Assembly: GCA_036509585.1 (NCBI GenBank)
Contig: DATCFI010000133.1
Span: forward strand, 15,150 to 79,149
Length of the DNA: 64,000 nt
Direction of reading: 5' to 3'
Origin: Hanamia sp.
GTDB lineage: Bacteria > Bacteroidota > Bacteroidia > Chitinophagales > Chitinophagaceae
Below the pieces are notes generated by a model. The model made no database searches. It worked only from the letters and a program-made list of their open reading frames with translations, and was not told where the DNA came from. Positions within the stretch are counted from its first letter, which is position 1. Every line of letters starts with the position of its first letter. Positions 4,961 to 20,123 of the stretch are shown in pieces. The position numbers and the translations under genes are program-made.

Positions 4961-7366
4961 ATGACCATAGCTAAAACAGTTCGTAATTATTTCGCAGTTC
5001 TTGGGGTGTTACTATTTTCAATTAATAATGCCGGCATTGCACAGGTAAAATCTTTTCAGAAAACAAATTTTGGAGTAAGTTTTATTTTGAATACCGGTAA
5101 GATGAATATTTACCTGATAAAAGATGGGCTTGTAGAAGTTAGATATACCAGCCTGGAAGATCTCTCCGAAAAAAAATCATTGGTGGTATTACCTGTAAAA
5201 TCCTATTTAAATAATTTTGCTGTCGCAGAAGATAAAGTTGACATCATTATTACTACACCTAAATTAAAAATTAAAGTAAACCGGGAAAACCAATCTATTA
5301 CTTATACCGATTTACATAATAAAACTATTCTTGCAGAAACAGATGAGAACAATAAGGTAATGCGCGATACTTCTGTTGCTGGAATAAATACTTATAGTTG
5401 CGCTACCTCTTTTCAATCGCCCGCTGATGAAGCATTATATGGATTGGGTTGTCATCCTTTGGATTCTCTTTCTATTAATTACAAAGGCCGGAATCAGGAT
5501 ATGGCCATTAAATATCTTACGGGAGCCATTCCTGTTTTGCTATCTACAAAAGGGTATGGCCTCTTGTGGGATAATTATGCAGCATCCCAATTTTTTGGTG
5601 ATGAAGCTGATAATACACAATATACTTATGTTTCCGAAAGCGGTAAAATGGTTGATTACTATTTTTTTTATGGACCATCATTCGATGATATAATGGATAT
5701 GTACAGGAATCTTACCGGCGTTGCACCTATGTATCCAAAATGGGCTTTTGGTTTATTTCAGTCGCAGGACAGGTATAAAAGTCAAAAGGAAATATTGACG
5801 GTAGCAGATAATTATCGTAAAAATAATATACCGGTGGATGCCATTGTTCAGGATTGGTTTTATTGGTCACCGCTTCCGATAGGTTCACATGTGATGTACC
5901 CCGAACGTTATCCTGACCCGAAAGCGATGATTGACCAATTACATAACGAGCATTTTCATGCAATGATCTCTATATGGCCATGTTTTGGAGAAGGTACGCA
6001 GGATTATAATCAGCTCAAAGATGCAGGATATCTGACTACAGTTACCTGGGATAATTTTTTTGTACATAAAATAGATTATTATTATGATGCACACAATCCG
6101 GGCGCAAGAGAAATGTATTGGGATCAGGCCCGGGACAGCCTTATCAAGCGTTATGGCTGGGACGCATGGTGGGTTGACCAATGTGAACCTGATACCAAAG
6201 ATCCGAATGACAGAAAGAAAGCGGTTTTTTTCACTGGCCAGGGAATTGATTATTTTAATACTTACTCGCTGGAGCATACCAGGGGGATCTATAATAAATG
6301 GCGGAGGGATATTCCCAAAAAAAGAATTTTTTTATTAGCAAGACAAGCATTCGCGGGTCAGCAAAGAAACGCGGCTACTCTTTGGTCTTCTGACATTACT
6401 ACTACTTTCGCTGCTTTTAAAAACCAGGTTCCACAGGCAATTAATACTTGTATATCAGGCATTCCTTATTGGACTTCAGATATTGGTGGGTATATTTCAT
6501 ATACATCTCCGGAAGGAATACCTGATTGGTCTACGCCTGTTCAGCGCGAATTGTTTACCCGCTGGTTCCAGTTTGGCGCATTCAGTCCGATTTTCAGGAT
6601 CCACGGTAAAGGAGAAAGAGCATTATTCTCTGATAACTGGGATGCACAAACGAAAAAAATCCTTTTGAAATATGATGATCTCCGGTACCGTTTGTTGCCA
6701 TACATTTATTCACTGTCAAGCGAAGTAACAAGAAACAATTATACTATCATGCGTTCCCTTGCTTTTGATTTCAGGAACGATCCTAAAGTTTATGATATCC
6801 CTGACCAGTATATGTTTGGCCCTGCTTTTTTAGTAAACCCGGTAACCCAACAGCTTTATTCCGGAGCCAATGCTGATAAATCGGGCACCACCAGGGAGGT
6901 TTATCTTCCAAAAAATACGGACTGGTACGACTTCTGGACTGGTAAGAAACTTCAAGGCGGACAAACTATTCAGGCTTCTTCACCGATTGATATTATGCCA
7001 TTGTATGTAAGGGAAGGTTCTATTATTCCTATGGGGCCGGTAATGGAATATGCTACCCAAAAACCTGCTGAGAATATAGAACTTCGCATATATCCCGGAG
7101 CTAACGGGCATTTTACTTTATATGAAGATGCCAATAACGACTACAACTATGAACATGGAGAGTTTGCTACGTTTACCTTTAACTGGAATGATAAAACCCA
7201 TGAACTAAGCATATCATCAAGAAAGGGTTCTTTTCCCGGCATGTTGAAGAAGCGTAATTTTCATGTAGTAGTAGTGAGAGAAAATAATGGCACAGGTGAA
7301 AGTGAAACTATAAAGGCTAATAAAATAATTGAGTATAATGGAAGCGCTTTAAAAGTGAAATTGTAA
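4961..7366 (+). CDS. Glycoside hydrolase family 31 (alpha-xylosidase-like)
   Basis: Signal peptide; IVQDW, WWVDQCEP nucleophile region, WTSDIGG, RWFQFGAFSP and DQYMFGP motifs. Confidence 0.9.
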   Translation: MTIAKTVRNYFAVLGVLLFSINNAGIAQVKSFQKTNFGVSFILNTGKMNIYLIKDGLVEVRYTSLEDLSEKKSLVVLPVKSYLNNFAVAEDKVDIIITTPKLKIKVNRENQSITYTDLHNKTILAETDENNKVMRDTSVAGINTYSCATSFQSPADEALYGLGCHPLDSLSINYKGRNQDMAIKYLTGAIPVLLSTKGYGLLWDNYAASQFFGDEADNTQYTYVSESGKMVDYYFFYGPSFDDIMDMYRNLTGVAPMYPKWAFGLFQSQDRYKSQKEILTVADNYRKNNIPVDAIVQDWFYWSPLPIGSHVMYPERYPDPKAMIDQLHNEHFHAMISIWPCFGEGTQDYNQLKDAGYLTTVTWDNFFVHKIDYYYDAHNPGAREMYWDQARDSLIKRYGWDAWWVDQCEPDTKDPNDRKKAVFFTGQGIDYFNTYSLEHTRGIYNKWRRDIPKKRIFLLARQAFAGQQRNAATLWSSDITTTFAAFKNQVPQAINTCISGIPYWTSDIGGYISYTSPEGIPDWSTPVQRELFTRWFQFGAFSPIFRIHGKGERALFSDNWDAQTKKILLKYDDLRYRLLPYIYSLSSEVTRNNYTIMRSLAFDFRNDPKVYDIPDQYMFGPAFLVNPVTQQLYSGANADKSGTTREVYLPKNTDWYDFWTGKKLQGGQTIQASSPIDIMPLYVREGSIIPMGPVMEYATQKPAENIELRIYPGANGHFTLYEDANNDYNYEHGEFATFTFNWNDKTHELSISSRKGSFPGMLKKRNFHVVVVRENNGTGESETIKANKIIEYNGSALKVKL

Positions 7367-8759: not shown

Positions 8760-8857
8760 AGAGTTTGGATCGGTTCATAAACATAAACGTTTTTTTTGAA
8801 ATTATATTTCCGGTGCGGGTCCCTTTTTGGCGCGTGATACAGTTGATGAGAACGGTT

Positions 8858-11148: not shown

Positions 11149-11501
11149 AATTTCTGCCTCAGTGGGTGTTCGCTGTAAACACAACCTTTCGTTGGGTAGA
11201 AGATAGCGGCCGGAACCGAAGGTCAGACCGCGGGTTAAATTGGGGGCTGCTGTCTGCTCTCCCGTTCAAAGAATACATCGGAACCTTTGTTTTAATTTTA
11301 TAGACTCTTCCATTTTTCGTTTATACTTTATTGTTATTGAAATAAATTTAAATGATAAATACAAATGTTGCTTATTTCTTGCTTTACTGAAATACCCGGC
11401 TTCTGTGGGCAACGCAACAATTGTTTTTTCTTTCATGCTGCTTCAATGGGAAAAATGAACTTTTTATTGGTGGATGCCATTGGTCATGAGACCAGACGAC
11501 G
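11148..11501. mobile_element. REPIN-like mosaic: family D hairpin, degenerate family A REP, AT-rich core with CGTTTA-N9-GTTAT, inverted family A REP
   Basis: 11148-11265 aligns with 17428-17546; core 11313-11377 aligns with 19108-19176; inverted REP gccattggtcatgagaccagacgacg at 11476-11501 matches 22955-22982 in reverse complement. Confidence 0.7.
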
Positions 11502-15444: not shown

Positions 15445-17421
15445 ATGAAATTAAAATTAACCTTCTTATTCTTTGCCTTGTATTTAGTTCAATGCGCTTA
15501 TGCGCAAAAAGCAAAAAACTTTGATGTGCCATCGCCGGATGGAAATATCAAACTGCATGTTGAAACTTCCGGTAAAATAATATGGTCGGTAAAAGACAGA
15601 GATCAAATCATTATTGAGCCTTCGTCCATTTCATTACAATTGCAAAATGAAACGCTGGGTGATAAGGCGATAATTACTTCCTCCAAAACAGAAAAAGTAA
15701 ACAATACAATTACTGCCATCCATTATATCAAAGCAACTATTCCTGATAATTACAACCAACTCACTTTAAAATGTAAAGGAGATTATGGTTTACTATTCAG
15801 GGTTTATAATGATGCCGTTGCCTATCGCTTTTTTACAAAGAAAAAAGATAGTATCATCGTCAAGAATGAAGAAGCTAATTTCAATTTTACAAACGATGAT
15901 AGTGCGTTCATCCCCATACAATGGGATTATCGTGACGGACAAAATTTCAACTCATCATTCGAAGCGCTATATCATCACATAACGCTATCGGAATTTCCAA
16001 AAGATTCACTGGCATTTCTTCCTTTACTGGTGGATGTAGGCAATGGAAGAAAAGCAGAAATACTCGAAGCAGATCTCGAAGATTATCCCGGCATGTACCT
16101 CGATTTAAATGAAACAAACAAAGGGTTGAAAGGTGTGTATGCGCCGTATCCTGCAAAGGAATATTTGCATGGCATCAATTACATCGTGTCAGACAGGGAA
16201 GCTTATATTGCCAAAACAAGCGGCACCAAAAATTTTCCGTGGCGTATTGTTGCCATCAGTGAACAGGACAAAGATTTATTGAATAATGATATTGTGCAAA
16301 AGCTTGCATCACCACCAAGACTTACCGATTATTCATGGGTAAAACCAGGGCAGGTTTCATGGGATTGGTGGAACAACTGGAACGTTACACATGTTGACTT
16401 TCATGCAGGCATCAACACCGATACTTATAAATATTATATTGATTTTGCGGCTGCCAACAAACTGCCTTACATTATTATGGATGAAGGTTGGAGTGATGAT
16501 CTTGATCTTTTAAAAGTAAAGTCATACGATCTGAATCTGCAGGAGATTATAGATTATGGTAAACAAAAAAATGTGGGTGTTATTCTTTGGGCAACATGGT
16601 ATGCAGCTTCCCATCAGACAGACGCTGCATTTTCTACTTATTCAAAGATGGGTGTGAAAGGTTTTAAAATAGATTTCTTTGATCGCGATGACCAAAAAGT
16701 TGTTGAGTCAACTTATGCTATTGCAAAGAAAGCTGCCGAATATAAACTGATGGTTGATTATCATGGCATGTATAAGCCGACAGGCTTGCAACGAACTTAT
16801 CCAAACGTAATTGGCTTTGAAGGTGTGAAAGGTTTGGAGAATTTTAAATGGGCTGATGAAGATCAGCCGCGATACACCACCAGCATTCCTTTTATACGCA
16901 TGATGGCCGGCCCGATGGATTATACGCCAGGCGCTATGCGTAATGCAACGAAGGATGATTTCAGGCCGATTAATGGTAACCCAATGGCGAAAGGCACCCG
17001 TTGTAACCAGCTTGCTGAGTATGTTGTTTTTTACGCTCCATTGCAAATGTTGTCTGACAATCCGACAATATATATGCGTGAAAAAGAGTGTACCGATTTT
17101 ATAATACAAGTGCCTACAACATGGGATGAAACGGTACCTCTTGACGGCAAGGTCGGTGAATATGTTGCGGTGGCCCGTCGAAAAGGAAGCGATTGGTTTG
17201 TAGGTGCGATGAGCAATTGGAATGCAAGAGATATTACACTTGATTTTTCATTTCTTCCCGCAGGAAAATATACAGCCGAAGTTTTTAAAGATGGTGTAAA
17301 TGCAGATCGCAATGCAACTGATTATAAAAAGGAAATCATTACTATTTCTTCAGGCGATAAAATAAATATTCATTTGGCATCGGGTGGTGGCTGGGCAGCA
17401 AGAATAAGCAAGGCACCATAA
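15445..17421 (+). CDS. Glycoside hydrolase family 97
   Basis: Signal peptide; SPDGNI, KPGQVSWDWW, GFKIDFFDRDDQ, FEGVKGLE and GPMDYTPGA motifs. Confidence 0.93.
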   Translation: MKLKLTFLFFALYLVQCAYAQKAKNFDVPSPDGNIKLHVETSGKIIWSVKDRDQIIIEPSSISLQLQNETLGDKAIITSSKTEKVNNTITAIHYIKATIPDNYNQLTLKCKGDYGLLFRVYNDAVAYRFFTKKKDSIIVKNEEANFNFTNDDSAFIPIQWDYRDGQNFNSSFEALYHHITLSEFPKDSLAFLPLLVDVGNGRKAEILEADLEDYPGMYLDLNETNKGLKGVYAPYPAKEYLHGINYIVSDREAYIAKTSGTKNFPWRIVAISEQDKDLLNNDIVQKLASPPRLTDYSWVKPGQVSWDWWNNWNVTHVDFHAGINTDTYKYYIDFAAANKLPYIIMDEGWSDDLDLLKVKSYDLNLQEIIDYGKQKNVGVILWATWYAASHQTDAAFSTYSKMGVKGFKIDFFDRDDQKVVESTYAIAKKAAEYKLMVDYHGMYKPTGLQRTYPNVIGFEGVKGLENFKWADEDQPRYTTSIPFIRMMAGPMDYTPGAMRNATKDDFRPINGNPMAKGTRCNQLAEYVVFYAPLQMLSDNPTIYMREKECTDFIIQVPTTWDETVPLDGKVGEYVAVARRKGSDWFVGAMSNWNARDITLDFSFLPAGKYTAEVFKDGVNADRNATDYKKEIITISSGDKINIHLASGGGWAARISKAP

Positions 17422-17427
17422 AAAGGG

Positions 17428-17714
17428 AAATTTCAGCCTCTGTGAGTGTGTGCTTGAAGCATGACTTTTCGGCGGATGGGGATAGCGGTCGGCGCCGAAG
17501 GTCAGACCGGGGGTTAAATTGAGGAACGCCGTCTGATCTCACGGGCAACCTATCCAGATAAAACCTCGCGGATGAATAGTAATAATCTTCCGGCTTTTCA
17601 CACAAACCTGCCTTCATCGGATTCTGATTTATTTGGCCAGGAGACCAGACGGCGGCCCCCACTGGCGGATTGAAGGATTTGGAAAATAAAGAAGTAACAC
17701 CCGCATTGGTTAAA
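17428..17714 (-). mobile_element. REPIN-like remnant containing the 3' fragment of a RAYT (REP-associated tyrosine transposase)
   Basis: Minus strand 17548-17634 reads INQNPMKAGLCEKPEDYYYSSARFYL, a RAYT/IS200-like C-terminus. It lies between a degenerate REP (17528-17550) and an inverted REP (17635-17656). Confidence 0.75.
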
Positions 17715-17982
17715 AAATCGGTCATGCCTACGGCATTGGGAGATAATCTTTATTATTTCTGATTGCTGTGATTGACTCCAAAATAATTGGTGAGACGGAA
17801 GCAGTTTGACCGCTGCCCGGGTGTCCACCAACCGGCGACATTTTGAAATGTACCCTATTTGGTTTACTATAATCCACAGGTTAATAATTTTGATCAGATT
17901 AAAAAAGTAATCTCTTTATTCTGGCAGCATAATTGTAAATACTTTAGTAAATTGTTATTAAAATTATTAAAAAATTAAAATC

Positions 17983-18123
17983 ATGCTATTTACAAGTATT
18001 TCTCTTGCTTTTGTAGCAGCCGTTATTGCTATTTTCATATTCAGAAGTTTAAGAAAGAAAAAGAATGAAAAAATTAATATTAATGAAAAAGAATATGAAG
18101 AAAAAAAAGGCATCATAGATTAA
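17983..18123 (+). CDS. 46-aa single-pass membrane microprotein (not in the ORF track)
   Basis: MLFTSISLAFVAAVIAIFIFRSLRKKKNEKININEKEYEEKKGIID; start context aaaaattaaaatcATG; transmembrane segment followed by a basic stretch. Confidence 0.6.
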   Translation: MLFTSISLAFVAAVIAIFIFRSLRKKKNEKININEKEYEEKKGIID

Positions 18124-18177
18124 TTAATTTATTTAGAATATTTTCCTAAATACACAAAAGTTTCAAATACTTCTGCT

Positions 18178-18200
18178 GCTGTTGGCGGGACGCCAACAGC
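18178..18200. repeat. REP-like hairpin, family B
   Basis: gctgttggcg-gga-cgccaacagc, a perfect 10-bp stem; related to 48339-48362 and 17811-17835. Confidence 0.65.
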
Positions 18201-18349
18201 GTTTTCAAACCTGATTACTTCTGTACCTGAAAATTATAACCAATGTCGGTGTTCCTTTCAGACTGGCGCATGCCTCCCGGCATATGACTGTTTGTTACTA
18301 ACCAATGTCGGTGTTCCTTTTTCTTCAGATTGCCAACTCCTGAAAGTAC

Positions 18350-18609
18350 GCCGCCGTCTGGTCTCCCGACCAACGGCATTAAGCAAATGCCCCTCTCAAT
18401 TACCTTTAATGTGTTTGCATTTTAAAACTATCCAACCTATCCAGAAAAAAATTCGCAGATGAATAGTAATAATCTTCCGGCTTTCACACAAACCTGTCTT
18501 CATCGGATTTTGATTAATTTGGGGCCGTTGGTCAGGAGACCAGACAGCGGCACCCACTGTCGGATCGAAGGCTTTGGAAAATAAAGAAGAAATACCCGCA
18601 TCGGTTAAA
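18350..18609 (-). mobile_element. REPIN-like element: inverted family A REP pair enclosing a RAYT 3' end
   Basis: gccgccgtctggtctcccgaccaacggc (18350-18377) and its inverse (18524-18551) differ at 2 positions. Minus strand 18406-18520 encodes INQNPMKTGLCE[frameshift]PEDYYYSSANFFLDRLDSFKMQTH*. About 170 bp is shared with 17546-17714. Confidence 0.8.
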
Positions 18610-18610
18610 T

Positions 18611-18908
18611 TTTCAACTTGCTGTTTATGATAGTTTGAATTACATGAGCATTCCTACAACTTTGAACCTTGGCATTGAGTCTTTATATAGAGTAGGTTAC
18701 CAAGGCACATTAAATAACGATTGTAGTAGTATTGGTAATGATAGTACTCTTGCAAATAGTGATAATATCAACGGTGATGGACAACTAACAATAACCAAAC
18801 TGGATAAAAACTGCCGGTATTATTTCTGGAACGTTTAACGCTATCTTATTTAAACTTGGCTGCGATACCATTAAAATTACTGAAGGTCGTTTCGATATGA
18901 AATTCTAA
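18611..18908 (+). pseudogene. 5'-truncated, frameshifted fragment of a DUF6252-like lipoprotein gene
   Basis: Removing one A from the A5 run at 18806-18810 gives GQLTITKLDKTAGIISGTFNAILFKLGCDTIKITEGRFDMKF*, a C-terminus I recognise from Bacteroidota lipoproteins. There is no N-terminus. Confidence 0.6.
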
Positions 18909-18940
18909 ATCTTTTTTCTTTAACCATAAATTTTTCTTTT

Positions 18941-19063
18941 ATGAAAAAGCTACAATTCATATTCTGTTTGTTAGGGCTATTATTTTTCTCCCAAAATCTT
19001 GTAACTGCACAAACTCAGTCAATGACGGTGTTCCCTAACCTTGCAATCCGAAACTATGACTGA
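18941..19063 (+). pseudogene. Truncated secreted-protein gene (signal peptide plus about 16 aa)
   Basis: MKKLQFIFCLLGLLFFSQNLVTAQTQSMTVFPNLAIRNYD*, ending 4 nt before the REP at 19068. Confidence 0.55.
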
Positions 19064-19067
19064 GAGG

Positions 19068-19176
19068 GCCGCCGTCTGGTCTCCCGACCAACAAAATTGA
19101 TTTCCACATTTTCGTTTATGCTTCTCAGTTATTGAATAATAAATTTAAATTATAAAATACAAATGTTGCTTATTTG
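19068..19176 (+). repeat. Family A REP plus 69-bp AT-rich core, identical to 23064-23132
   Basis: attttcgtttatgcttctcagttattgaataataaatttaaattataaaatacaaatgttgcttatttg occurs at 19108-19176 and 23064-23132. Confidence 0.95.
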
Positions 19177-19202
19177 GCGATTCGCATTTACCGTTTTGTC
19201 AG

Positions 19203-20123
19203 CTAATTAAACGAATGCCTAAACTCCAAAGGTGAAAATTTGGTTTTGCTTTTAAACAATTTACTAAATGACTGCGAATGTTCAAAGCCTAATTCGTAGG
19301 CAATCTCGCTCACCGATAGTTCGGTAGTAGAGAGTTTTTCCTTTGCTTTTTCAATCAACTTATTATGAATATGCTGCTGGGTGCTTTGTCCGGTTAATAC
19401 TTTGAGCAATGAACTTAAATAGTTTGGAGATACATTTAATGTTTCTGAAACAAAATGTACGGATGGCAGGCCTTTTGAGATCAATTCATCGTTATTGAAA
19501 TAGTCACTAAGGATTTTTTCCAGGCGCTCCAGTATTTGATGATTGCTTATTTTTCGGGTAATGAATTGACGTTCATAAAATCTTTCTGAGTAAGTGAGCA
19601 ATAATTCTAATTGTGCAATAATAACGCTCTGACTGAATTTGTCAATATTGGAATGGTACTCCTTTTCTATATTTTGAATAATGTTGTTCATTACAGCCTC
19701 TTCTTTTTCTGAAAGGAATAAGGCCTCGTGTACCGAATAATCAAAATATTCGTATTGCTTTATGTTTTTTGCCAGGCTTGTATTCCACAAAAAATCCGGA
19801 TGAAAAAGCAGCATCCATCCAGACTTTTTTTCGGAATCATTTTTACCATGCTCAATTCCGAAGACCTGGTTGGGAGCCACAAAAAACATAGTGCTCTCAT
19901 CAAAATCGTAATCCTGCTGCCCGTATTTGAATTTGGCATCGCAATTTCTTTTCAACGCAATGAAATAAAATTCATAGATGAAATTAGTGGGTTCCTCGTC
20001 GCGAAAGCCTTTAATGTCCTCAACATTTATCACGCTGATTAATGGATGTTCGGGCATTGGTAATCCCCTAAGCCGGTGAAATTCACTTACTGATTTGATT
20101 CTGTATGGTTGTTTGTTTACCAT
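19203..20123 (-). CDS. AraC family transcriptional regulator
   Basis: C-terminal double HTH (LNVSPNYLSSLLKVLTGQSTQQHIH...SVSEIAYELGFEHSQSFSKLFK). Confidence 0.95.
   Translation of the reverse strand: MVNKQPYRIKSVSEFHRLRGLPMPEHPLISVINVEDIKGFRDEEPTNFIYEFYFIALKRNCDAKFKYGQQDYDFDESTMFFVAPNQVFGIEHGKNDSEKKSGWMLLFHPDFLWNTSLAKNIKQYEYFDYSVHEALFLSEKEEAVMNNIIQNIEKEYHSNIDKFSQSVIIAQLELLLTYSERFYERQFITRKISNHQILERLEKILSDYFNNDELISKGLPSVHFVSETLNVSPNYLSSLLKVLTGQSTQQHIHNKLIEKAKEKLSTTELSVSEIAYELGFEHSQSFSKLFKSKTKFSPLEFRHSFN

What the first reader, a model, noticed from the sequence alone, without database searches (positions are those of the whole stretch)
17428..18609. Two REPIN-like elements whose spacer is the 3' end of a RAYT transposase gene
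Seen: inverted family A REPs (18350-18377 and 18524-18551) enclose the last ~37 codons of a RAYT-like gene. A second copy at 17528-17714 is shorter, with the REP end (caacc) joined directly to caacctatccag of the RAYT piece, consistent with microhomology deletion. Established: RAYTs are HUH (Y1) enzymes flanked by REPs, and REPINs are inverted REP pairs mobilised by RAYT. Inference: these are non-autonomous elements born from internal deletion of a RAYT locus and then copied, a snapshot of REPIN origin.
Basis: partly seen in the sequence, partly recalled or inferred. Interest (0 to 1): 0.62.

Follow-up and report, generated by a model that had tools for sequence, protein, structure and literature searches.

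The report
Decayed mini-copies of a RAYT transposon
Two short, broken copies of a REP-associated transposase element, each keeping the element's ends and only the last quarter of the gene, sit next to each other in a peat Chitinophagaceae genome; they are real relics of one internal deletion that was later duplicated, but there is no sign they are an active or proliferating REPIN family.

Summary
On the minus strand, 18296-18609 is a complete mini-element. It has a left end (58-nt distal module plus a 28-nt REP hairpin), about 14-18 nt of 5' leader, RAYT codons 137-174 with the original stop, the 3' flank, and an inverted REP plus distal module. Full-length 174-aa RAYT loci from related Chitinophagaceae carry the same REP at the same distances. 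An alignment shows one ~435-nt deletion, covering the rest of the leader and codons 1-136, at an AATC microhomology. The piece therefore lacks both the HUH motif and the catalytic Tyr.

Copy 1 (17525-17714) shares this junction, so both copies descend from a single deletion. Copy 1 then lost 9 nt of its left REP and 64 nt at its right end, and both of its hairpins are gone. The copies differ by 6-11%, about as much as copy 1 differs from its orthologue in a relative.

A third same-junction copy, with a different left-end flank, exists in related peat metagenomes. Contig depth suggests the organism has no intact cognate RAYT.

"Born by internal deletion, then copied" is supported. "Snapshot of REPIN origin" is not: this is a low-copy, decaying, MITE-like relic.

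The parts
17428..17524 (.). 'D-hairpin' composite directly after the GH97 stop codon (17419-17421). It is context for the right side of copy 1.
   Evidence: The D9 and D12 repeat families recur at 8853, 11194/11202 and 17473/17481 at 80-88%. The composite is absent downstream of GH97 in five relatives whose GH97 is 89-92% identical.
17525..17549 (+). Degenerate REP (REP') on the right side of copy 1. It lacks the 5' foot and no longer forms a hairpin.
   Evidence: 76% identical to the reference REP (D3). It folds at -2.8 kcal/mol with z = -0.2. It is part of the D12 composite that also occurs at 11202-11269.
17546..17623 (-). Copy 1, RAYT-derived codons N137-L162 (NPMKAGLCEKPEDYYYSSARFYLDRL), in frame.
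   Evidence: tblastn with P0006 gives 86% identity, E = 1e-11. It is 93.5% identical to copy 2, 94.9% to L004 and 85-88% to the full genes.
17624..17632 (-). Copy 1, remnant of the 5' leader (ATAAATCAG) between the left REP and the deletion junction.
   Evidence: The joint 1874->2382 on L044 has ATAAATCAG between its two sides. A relative's variant restores CCAATGGCAACAAATAAATCAGAATC, which matches the L005 leader at 16 of 18 positions.
17633..17656 (-). Copy 1, left-end REP that has lost 9 nt including the 3' foot. The hairpin is lost.
   Evidence: It folds at -2.3 kcal/mol with z = +0.7. L004 and contigs in X1-X4 keep the 9 nt.
17657..17714 (-). Copy 1, left-end distal module. The element terminus is TTTAACC.
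   Evidence: D1 repeat at 89% and alignment A1. Homology to L004 stops at 17716.
18234..18295 (+). Extra solo distal module (its 22 nt at 18237-18258 are identical to 18299-18320) followed by a small ATGCC/GGCAT hairpin.
   Evidence: D4.
18299..18349 (-). Copy 2, right-end distal module.
   Evidence: 74-76% identical to the right-end distal modules of L003 and L005. Metagenome contig depth here is about 10 times baseline, with many different flanks starting at 18299.
18350..18377 (-). Copy 2, right-end REP with an intact hairpin.
   Evidence: Zero mismatches over the 25-nt search pattern and one mismatch to the 28-nt consensus taken from L005. Folds at -9.7 kcal/mol with z = -3.6.
18378..18396 (-). 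Copy 2, 3' flank between the original stop codon and the right REP.
   Evidence: Alignment A1. The tail, flank and REP together are 88-89% identical to L003 and L005.
18397..18509 (-). Copy 2, RAYT codons N137-N174 including the original stop (GGTAATTGA; TGA at 18397-18399). It has a 1-nt deletion in GAAAAGCC causing a frameshift, and a premature TAA at 18407-18409.
18510..18523 (-). Copy 2, remnant of the 5' leader (CCCAAATTAATCAA) before the AATC microhomology junction.
   Evidence: compared with the L005 leader.
18524..18551 (-). Copy 2, left-end REP with an intact hairpin.
   Evidence: Two mismatches over the 25-nt pattern. Folds at -10.9 kcal/mol with z = -4.4.
18552..18609 (-). Copy 2, left-end distal module, terminus TTTAACC. 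The adjoining lipoprotein gene fragment starts at 18611.
   Evidence: D1. As single-stranded DNA the whole 314-nt element folds as a left-end/right-end stem at -55.5 kcal/mol, z = -5.05.
19016..19095 (+). Solo unit consisting of a distal-like module plus a REP without its 3' foot. It forms a direct repeat with REP' across the 1.5-kb variable segment.
   Evidence: Joints 17524->19109 and 17548->19142 appear in metagenome contigs.

Best explanation
The two elements are decaying, non-autonomous internal-deletion derivatives (MITE-like mini-elements) of a Chitinophagaceae REP-RAYT element.

The parent unit is about 740 nt long. It consists of a left end (58-nt distal module plus a 28-nt REP hairpin), a 45-nt leader, a 174-aa HUH/Y1 RAYT gene, an 18-nt 3' flank, and an inverted REP plus distal module.

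One ~435-nt deletion, between AATC microhomologies in the leader and at codon N137, removed the HUH motif and the catalytic Tyr133. It left a ~310-nt element with both ends (shown). That element was then duplicated, which is inferred from the shared junction and the shared derived substitutions. Copies end exactly at the TTA(A/G)CC left terminus.

Copy 1 then lost 9 nt of its left REP. It also lost 64 nt (the last 12 codons, the stop, the 3' flank and the REP foot) through a GTTGG microhomology, and it now abuts a REP that belongs to a D-hairpin composite at the GH97 3' end.

The duplication is old, and the genome probably no longer has the cognate RAYT, so both copies are most likely immobile relics (inferred). 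How the copy was made is not resolved. It could be RAYT acting in trans, or the local end-anchored duplication or REP-REP recombination typical of this family. I favour a local event.
For: Homology:
- The piece is 83-93% identical to RAYT C-termini.
- Copy 2 matches the full loci L003/L005 at 81-82% over about 215 nt, running through the stop codon, the 3' flank, the REP and the distal module (E = 1e-50).
- Alignment A1 shows a single internal gap.

Parent family:
- The full-length proteins pass NF047646, and their only PDB match is E. coli TnpArep, 4ER8.
- The identical REP lies about 45-60 nt before the ATG and 18 nt after the stop in L003, L005, L016 and L069.
- REP sequence covaries with RAYT clade.

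Single origin:
- The same junction occurs in copy 1, copy 2, L004 and a 660/369-nt contig in runs X3/X4.
- All copies share derived states that the full genes lack: ATG for GTG, TATTAC, GATAGG.

Age and decay:
- Copy 1 and copy 2 are 93.5% (piece) and 89% (left end) identical, against 94.9% between copy 1 and its L004 orthologue.
- Copy 2 has a frameshift and a premature stop.
- The hairpins of copy 1 are lost.

Precise terminus: homology between copies, and between the window and L004, stops at the left terminus, with four different flanks beyond it.

Family habit: local same-orientation partial duplications are seen in L003, L009, L056, L069 and L070, and tandem REP arrays in L044.

Cognate RAYT: in run X2 the organism is at depth 20-22, but the RAYT 5' and middle region reaches only 4.8-10.9.
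Against:
- Logan contigs show presence, not absence.
- The third copy in X3/X4 was seen only through read laying, and only its left-end flank could be read. It could be a diverged orthologue of copy 2.
- Assigning 'CCAAATAAATCAGAATC' to the leader rests on 14-16 of 18 matches, against 13 of 18-20 for the coding alternative.
- Copy 2 still has both hairpins and could in principle be mobilised.
Confidence: 0.65

Rival explanations
1. The mini-element is, or recently was, a RAYT-mobilised REPIN-like replicator whose spacer is the RAYT 3' end, caught at the moment a REPIN family is born.
For: Copy 2 keeps both REP hairpins and folds into a long left-end/right-end stem. Copies end exactly at the element terminus, with different flanks in at least three or four contexts. 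A cognate full-length RAYT (P0004, L006) is present in the same peat metagenome series. The literature proposes that REPINs arose from fused flanks of an IS200-like element (bioRxiv 10.1101/2021.07.10.451892; PMC3337134).
Against: Only two or three copies are known. They are 6-11% diverged and carry disabling lesions. No RAYT is seen at the organism's depth. The element is 314 nt with a 146-nt spacer, whereas a REPIN is usually about 100 bp according to that preprint. In relatives the REPs multiply as same-orientation arrays, not as inverted doublets.
Confidence: 0.2
2. The two copies are remains of two tandem full-length RAYT elements, like the pair in L069. They either suffered the same hot-spot deletion independently or were homogenised by gene conversion. 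On this view nothing was copied after the deletion.
For: Tandem full elements 861 nt apart exist in L069, against 887-895 nt here. An independent derivative in L070, whose RAYT is only about 60% identical, has its breakpoint at the same codon (N136/137) with a different microhomology, TAAT. L087 also breaks at about H135/Y136. This suggests a deletion hot spot.
Against: The copies share the identical leader remnant and junction and several derived substitutions. The same junction also occurs in L004 and in the X3/X4 contig. A single origin is more parsimonious.
Confidence: 0.1
3. The similarity to RAYT is a chance or compositional match, and the repeats are ordinary intergenic palindromes.
For: Pfam gives no hit for the short peptide. 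The NCBIfam hit of the peptide alone is weak (E = 0.0035).
Against: Protein E-values reach 2e-12. DNA homology at E = 1e-50 runs through the gene end, stop codon, flank and REP. Synteny with full loci is colinear.
Confidence: 0.01

Closest known systems
REPIN-RAYT systems (Pseudomonas fluorescens SBW25 REPINs; E. coli TnpA_REP with REP/BIME)
   Same: The parent gene is an HUH/Y1 transposase flanked by inverted copies of a GC-rich hairpin that also occurs elsewhere in the genome. REP sequence covaries with RAYT clade. Copy 2 is an inverted REP pair that can fold into a long hairpin.
   Different: The element is 314 nt and its spacer is a gene fragment. The ends are composite, with an extra 58-nt distal module about 35 nt from the hairpin. 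Copy number is two or three, not dozens to hundreds. Relatives show same-orientation REP arrays. The RAYT is of the Bacteroidota type (NHIH, WQ, YIHYNP, 174 aa), closest to Quentin subclass 2.6 / Bertels Group 5, not the REPIN-associated Groups 2 and 3.
MITEs formed by internal deletion of an insertion sequence, including the palindrome-associated elements (PATEs) derived from IS200/IS605; the IS200/IS605 examples are from my own knowledge
   Same: Both ends are retained and the transposase is deleted. The element is non-autonomous, low-copy and decaying, which is the standard fate of such derivatives as described in bioRxiv 10.1101/2021.07.10.451892.
   Different: The parent here is a RAYT-type gene, which is usually single-copy and regarded as domesticated, not a classical IS200/IS605 element. 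The ends are inverted copies of each other.
TnpA_REP subclass 2.6 of Quentin et al. 2018 (PMC6006769), which corresponds to RAYT Group 5 of Bertels et al. 2017 (PMC5581495)
   Same: Mostly found in Bacteroidetes, about 179 aa, with HuH motif NH[LIV]H, a WQ motif and a C-terminal extension containing a conserved serine. [quoted passage not shown]
   Different: The Y motif here is YIHYNP, not YIH[QN]NP. I inferred the subclass from motifs only and did not place the protein on a tree. Deletion derivatives were not found by term searches in the text of these papers.
REP insertions inside tnpA_REP genes (subclass 2.4, PMC6006769)
   Same: REP sequence lies directly against RAYT coding sequence. L013 shows a REP hairpin in frame within the gene.
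   Different: In the window the REP-gene contact is a deletion junction that removes the catalytic core. It is not an in-frame insertion that preserves the protein.

Membership tests
RAYT / TnpA_REP (HUH Y1 transposase) | HUH motif and catalytic Tyr present in the encoded protein | tested here: not met
   The window pieces start at N137, after Tyr133, and lack the HUH motif. The parent-type proteins have NHIH and YIHYNP, so the window holds only a gene fragment.
RAYT / TnpA_REP (HUH Y1 transposase) | Sequence homology of the fragment to the RAYT family | tested here: met
   83-93% identity to 174-aa proteins that score 94 and 89.5 bits against the NF047646 cut-off of 80. The peptide aligns to model positions 127-146 of 146. 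The only PDB match is 4ER8.
RAYT / TnpA_REP (HUH Y1 transposase) | Gene flanked by inverted cognate REPs that also occur elsewhere in the genome | tested here: met
   Seen in L003, L005/L006, L016, L044 and L069. Dispersed REPs occur in the window and arrays in L044.
RAYT / TnpA_REP (HUH Y1 transposase) | Low or single copy per genome | tested here: inconclusive
   Most species-representative genomes gave one locus and seven assemblies gave two, but tandem duplicates occur. The window's own genome could not be searched.
REPIN | Two REPs in inverted orientation that form a hairpin | tested here: met
   Met for copy 2 (I3). Copy 1 fails because both of its REPs are damaged.
REPIN | Short, variable spacer and total length of about 100 bp | tested here: not met
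   The spacer is 146 nt and is made of RAYT coding sequence plus flank. The element is 314 nt including the distal modules.
REPIN | Replicates as a unit to many copies within the genome | tested here: inconclusive
   There are two copies in 64 kb, one orthologue (L004) and one further copy in related metagenome contigs. The protein searches found no other junction-spanning ORF. The metagenome scan returned chance hits only and missed the window's own contig.
REPIN | Cognate RAYT present in the same genome | tested here: inconclusive
   In run X2 the RAYT 5' and middle region reaches depth 4.8-10.9 against an organism depth of 20-22. Contigs cannot prove absence.
MITE-like internal-deletion derivative of a transposon | Both element ends retained, transposase gene internally deleted, colinear with the parent | tested here: met
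   Alignment A1 shows a single ~435-nt gap, with 74-89% identity across the ends, tail and flank.
MITE-like internal-deletion derivative of a transposon | More than one copy, each with the same termini | tested here: met
   Copies 1 and 2 share the junction and the left terminus. L004 and the X3/X4 contig also share them. The copy number is minimal.

The most novel reading that the evidence does not exclude
Bacteroidota (Group 5 / subclass 2.6-like) RAYTs, so far treated as domesticated and not REPIN-associated, may still behave as mobile units with ~85-nt composite ends. They may also have a breakpoint hot spot at the Tyr-motif codons (H135-N137), seen independently in the window lineage, L070 and L087. 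Such a hot spot would repeatedly produce mini-elements and end-anchored partial copies. These would be natural intermediates between an IS200-like transposon and a REP/REPIN population.
Probability: 0.2. Interest if true: 0.6.

Novelty: new member of a known kind. Interest (0 to 1): 0.36.

Why it matters
The idea that REPINs and MITE-like repeats arise from the fused flanks of an IS200-like or RAYT element is a published hypothesis that so far rests mainly on inference. This locus gives a fully traceable example: the parent architecture, the exact deletion junction with its microhomology, the later duplication and the subsequent decay. It comes from a phylum and a RAYT type for which dispersed REPs have hardly been described.

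In practice, it explains a spurious 127-aa ORF called in public assemblies. It also marks the GH97-AraC interval as a REP-rich rearrangement hot spot.

It does not show an active new replicator, so its value is as a documented example, not as a new mechanism.

Tried and rejected
I could not make a census of REPs, junction copies or RAYT genes in the window's own genome.

2. The genome-contig scan with GARGAYTAYTAYTAYTCNTCNGC gave 83 loci, mostly Ferruginibacter, Hanamia and other Chitinophagaceae MAGs. The window's genome was not among them.

3. The metagenome-contig scan with the junction pattern (REP, N{5,35}, AAYCCNRTGAAR) returned 14 unrelated chance hits. It did not return the window's own JGI contig, so this negative result is uninformative.

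I used L044 instead.

5. The Rfam scan of 16800-19400 gave only a sub-threshold preQ1-II hit (28.7 bits against a gathering score of 47) in the neighbouring 95-nt repeat. I treated it as chance.

6. Pfam on the short peptide gave nothing.

7. I looked for a clean empty site. Five GH97 orthologues at 89-92% nt identity (L104-L108) lack the D hairpin, the REP and the RAYT piece. However, each has different downstream DNA, and homology ends within the last GH97 codons, so no precise empty site can be defined.

8. I considered an inversion linking L004's lipoprotein and signal-peptide genes to window 18611-19063. I rejected it because those genes show no DNA similarity and resemble each other only at the protein level, as paralogues would.

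9. I considered that the REP was inserted into an intact RAYT gene. I rejected this because nothing upstream of the left end encodes RAYT in any frame.
Full report
**What is there**

The window is a contig of a peat-metagenome Chitinophagaceae MAG. The same DNA is found in JGI 3300025679 and ENA ERZ27294331. The closest GH97 homologues are labelled Ginsengibacter sp.. The closest RAYT-related DNA is in Hanamia, Ferruginibacter and other Chitinophagaceae MAGs.

Between the GH97 gene (15445-17421, + strand) and an AraC-family gene (19203-20123, - strand) lies a repeat-rich 1.7 kb. A 25-28-nt GC-rich palindrome, GCCGCCGTCTGGTCTCC(C/T)GACCAACGGC, occurs 4 times with up to 3 mismatches, against 0 in 100 shuffles. 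Looser criteria give about 6-8 copies in the 64 kb. It folds as a 10-bp bulged hairpin at about -10 kcal/mol, z = -3.6 to -4.4.

Arms 18350-18377 and 18524-18551 are inverted, 93% complementary and 146 nt apart. The minus strand between them reads QINQNPMKTGLCE, then a -1 frameshift, then KPEDYYYSSANFFLDRLDSFKMQTH*. The second copy reads, in frame, QINQNPMKAGLCEKPEDYYYSSARFYLDRL.

A search of 5.8 billion proteins found 174-aa proteins that are 83-93% identical over this stretch (E = 2e-12 to 1e-6). Two of the three tested pass the NCBIfam equivalog 'REP-associated tyrosine transposase' (94.1 and 89.5 bits; the third, P0019, scores 79.7, just under the cut-off of 80). P0006 and P0004 hit Pfam Y1_Tnp just below its threshold. 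The only PDB match for P0006 is E. coli TnpArep (4ER8), aligned at the HUH and Tyr motifs. These proteins carry SNHIHLIWQ and EYIHYNP.

**The parent architecture**

Full-length loci were fetched from public assemblies (L003, L005, L006) and from species-representative genomes (L016, L044, L069). They show the same REP about 45-60 nt before the ATG. An inverted copy lies 18 nt after the stop.

Each REP is accompanied, about 35 nt further out, by a conserved distal module (TTA[A/G]CC..ATG.CGGTGTTCC). The element therefore has ~85-nt inverted composite ends and is about 740 nt long.

Across 40 full-length homologues with enough flanking DNA, the inverted flanking hairpin changes with the RAYT clade, as expected for cognate REP-RAYT pairs. 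Motifs and length (NHIH, WQ, YIHYNP, 174 aa, a C-terminal SS) place the protein nearest to Quentin subclass 2.6 / Bertels Group 5. That is the Bacteroidetes class described as flanked by 'atypical secondary structures' (PMC6006769). The assignment is by motif only.

**Copy 2 is an internal-deletion derivative**

Copy 2 (18296-18609, minus strand) was aligned with L003 and L005 (alignment A1). It has, in order:
- the left distal module and REP;
- 14-18 nt that continue the 5' leader;
- one gap of about 435 nt;
- codons 137-174, including the original GGTAATTGA stop;
- the 3' flank, the inverted REP and the right distal module.

Identities to the full loci are 82-86% for the piece, 88-89% for the tail, flank and REP, and 74-85% for the distal modules and left end. 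BLASTN gives 81.8% over 214 nt, E = 1e-50.

The residues 'QINQ' are best read as leader, not RAYT. A variant in related contigs reads CCAATGGCAACAAATAAATCAGAATC. After the REP's GGC foot, its 18 nt match the L005 leader AACAAATATTTCAGAATC at 16 of 18 positions, against about 13 of 18 for the coding alternative.

The junction therefore sits at an AATC microhomology (leader CAGAATC, coding TACAATC). The deletion removed the rest of the leader and codons 1-136, so the HUH motif and Tyr133 are both gone.

**Copy 1 shares the junction**

Copy 1 (17525-17714) has the same junction and the same left terminus. It then suffered two further lesions.
- A 9-nt loss inside the left REP. L004 and metagenome variants retain these 9 nt.
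- A 64-nt loss between GTTGG repeats, which took the last 12 codons, the stop, the 3' flank and the REP foot.

Neither of its REPs still folds. Its right REP belongs to a D-hairpin-plus-REP composite that also occurs at 11202-11269.

**Was it copied?**

All same-junction copies share derived states that the full genes lack: ATG instead of GTG at codon 139, TATTAC, and GATAGG. A single deletion followed by duplication is therefore the parsimonious reading.

Besides the two window copies, I found two more.
- L004 is a 1.1-kb contig from a relative whose GH97 3' end is 91% identical. It carries copy 1 at the same GH97 site, but different DNA lies beyond the left terminus.
- A 660-nt contig in run X3 (369 nt in X4) holds a complete element. 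It is about 88% identical to copy 2. The one flank that could be read, beyond the left end, is different again.

Homology stops exactly at the TTA(A/G)CC terminus in all four contexts. This marks a real element end.

The copies are old. Copy 1 and copy 2 are 93.5% (piece) and 89% (left end) identical, about the same as copy 1 against its L004 orthologue at 94.9% and 89.7%.

No other junction-spanning ORF was found in the protein collection. One further derivative with a different junction was seen: P0012, where REP-encoded AVVWSP is fused to TNHIHL.

**Is a cognate RAYT still present?**

Runs X1 and X2 hold the organism at 100% identity, at depths of about 14-15 and 20-22. When the L044 RAYT locus is laid on them, the 5' and middle part of the gene in X2 reaches only 4.8-10.9. 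The 3' end and the REPs are several-fold above baseline.

A full-length cognate RAYT (P0004, L006) is present in X4 at a depth that does not fit this organism. Remnants at organism-like depth do exist.

The organism therefore probably lacks an intact cognate RAYT. This is an inference from contigs, which show presence but cannot prove absence.

**Family context**

In relatives, these elements show local, same-orientation, end-anchored duplications:
- two full elements 861 nt apart at 88.9% identity (L069);
- 601-nt and 647-nt tandem repeats at 98.5-98.8% (L056, L009);
- three copies of the left end plus 5' gene part, 164-200 nt at 95-96% (L003);
- a 182-nt 3' fragment ending at the right terminus, repeated 1.8 kb away at 100% identity (L003).

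L044 has 15 REPs within 6.4 kb, two before the gene and 13 after it in same-orientation arrays. 3' fragments attached to a right REP are common, but their 5' junctions differ.

The window pair, 887-895 nt apart in the same orientation, fits this habit. For that reason I favour a local duplication over dispersal by transposition, without being able to exclude the latter.

One point remains unexplained. An independent derivative in L070, from a RAYT only about 60% identical, breaks at the same codon (N136/137) with a different microhomology, TAAT. L087 breaks at about H135/Y136.

**Empty sites**

Five GH97 orthologues at 89-92% nt identity have no D hairpin, REP or RAYT piece. Homology ends in the last GH97 codons, and the downstream genes all differ.

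A contig 92% identical across GH97 in X3/X4 runs from GH97 through the D hairpin and REP' to 17548. It then joins the 95-nt repeat that follows the REP at 19068, with an unknown amount of sequence between. The 1.5 kb bracketed by the direct REPs at 17525 and 19068 is therefore variable between relatives. Its direction, insertion or REP-REP deletion, is unknown.

**Verdict**

The origin by internal deletion and a later duplication are well supported.

The claim of a 'snapshot of REPIN origin' overreaches, for four reasons: copy number is minimal, the copies are old and damaged, the cognate enzyme is probably gone, and inverted doublets are not how these REPs multiply in this clade.

The literature already proposes that REPINs and MITEs come from transposon flanks (bioRxiv 10.1101/2021.07.10.451892; PMC3337134). 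This locus is a clear, well-documented example in a little-studied RAYT class, not a new kind of element.

**Limits**

The metagenome scan was uninformative.

Noticed in passing
L003:2718-4068 and L003:4441-4622 / 6239-6420: There are three copies of the RAYT left end plus the first ~22-27 codons (164-200 nt, 95-96% identical; two of them adjacent). A 182-nt 3' fragment (codon ~148 to the right terminus) is repeated 1.8 kb away at 100% identity. Each partial copy is anchored exactly at an element end, which resembles one-ended or abortive copying.
   Followed up: partly
L044:1851-6412: Fifteen copies of the cognate REP lie within 6.4 kb around a full-length RAYT. Two precede the gene and 13 follow it in same-orientation arrays with 60-190-nt spacing. 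So REPs in this clade multiply as direct arrays, not as inverted doublets.
   Followed up: partly
L070:4687-5014 (also L087:3634-3755): An independent deletion derivative of a RAYT only ~60% identical to P0006 joins an upstream module, via TAAT microhomology, to codon N136/137. This is the same codon as in the window. L087 breaks at about H135/Y136. This may be a breakpoint hot spot at the Tyr motif, and it is unexplained.
   Followed up: partly
L069:510-2084; L056:3885-5176; L009:2164-3457: Tandem duplications of whole or partial RAYT elements at 88.9%, 98.5% and 98.8% identity. The L009 repeat is head to tail.
   Followed up: partly
L013:1014-1148: A REP hairpin (GCCTTGGTTCGTGTCTCACGAACCAAGGC) sits in frame inside a RAYT remnant, between the Tyr motif and EDYYYSS. 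This resembles the REP insertions inside tnpA_REP genes reported for subclass 2.4.
   Followed up: no
P0012 (metagenome protein, 137 aa): This is another deletion derivative with a different junction. REP-encoded AVVWSP is fused directly to TNHIHL at the HUH motif.
   Followed up: no
window 17342-17725 (minus strand): The 127-aa ORF called in public assemblies (P0001, on five contigs) is spurious. It reads through the left distal module, the REP, the RAYT piece and the D hairpin, then runs antisense into the GH97 3' end.
   Followed up: yes
window 17405-17421 versus L104-L108: The GH97 3' end is a synteny breakpoint. Five orthologues at 89-92% nt identity diverge within the last 2-6 codons and have five different downstream neighbourhoods. 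In the window and in L004, the repeat composite starts within a few bases of the stop.
   Followed up: partly
window 17525-19095: The 1.5-kb segment holding both RAYT pieces, the 46-aa ORF and the lipoprotein and signal-peptide gene fragments is bracketed by direct REPs (17525-17549 and 19068-19092). Contigs in relatives join the D-hairpin/REP' side to the 95-nt repeat beyond 19109/19142 without it.
   Followed up: partly
window 19108-19202 and seven other sites; L107:6070-6150: A 61-95-nt AT-rich repeat (ATTTTCGTTTATGC...AAATACAAATG..GCTTATTTG) follows several REPs in the window. A similar sequence lies downstream of GH97 in a relative. A sub-threshold preQ1-II Rfam hit (28.7 bits, E = 0.04) falls inside it and is probably chance.
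   Followed up: no
window 18237-18258 and 18299-18320: A 22-nt stretch of the distal module is duplicated exactly, 62 nt apart. The first copy is followed by a different small hairpin (ATGCC-TCCC-GGCAT), which suggests modular swapping of hairpins on the same distal module.
   Followed up: no
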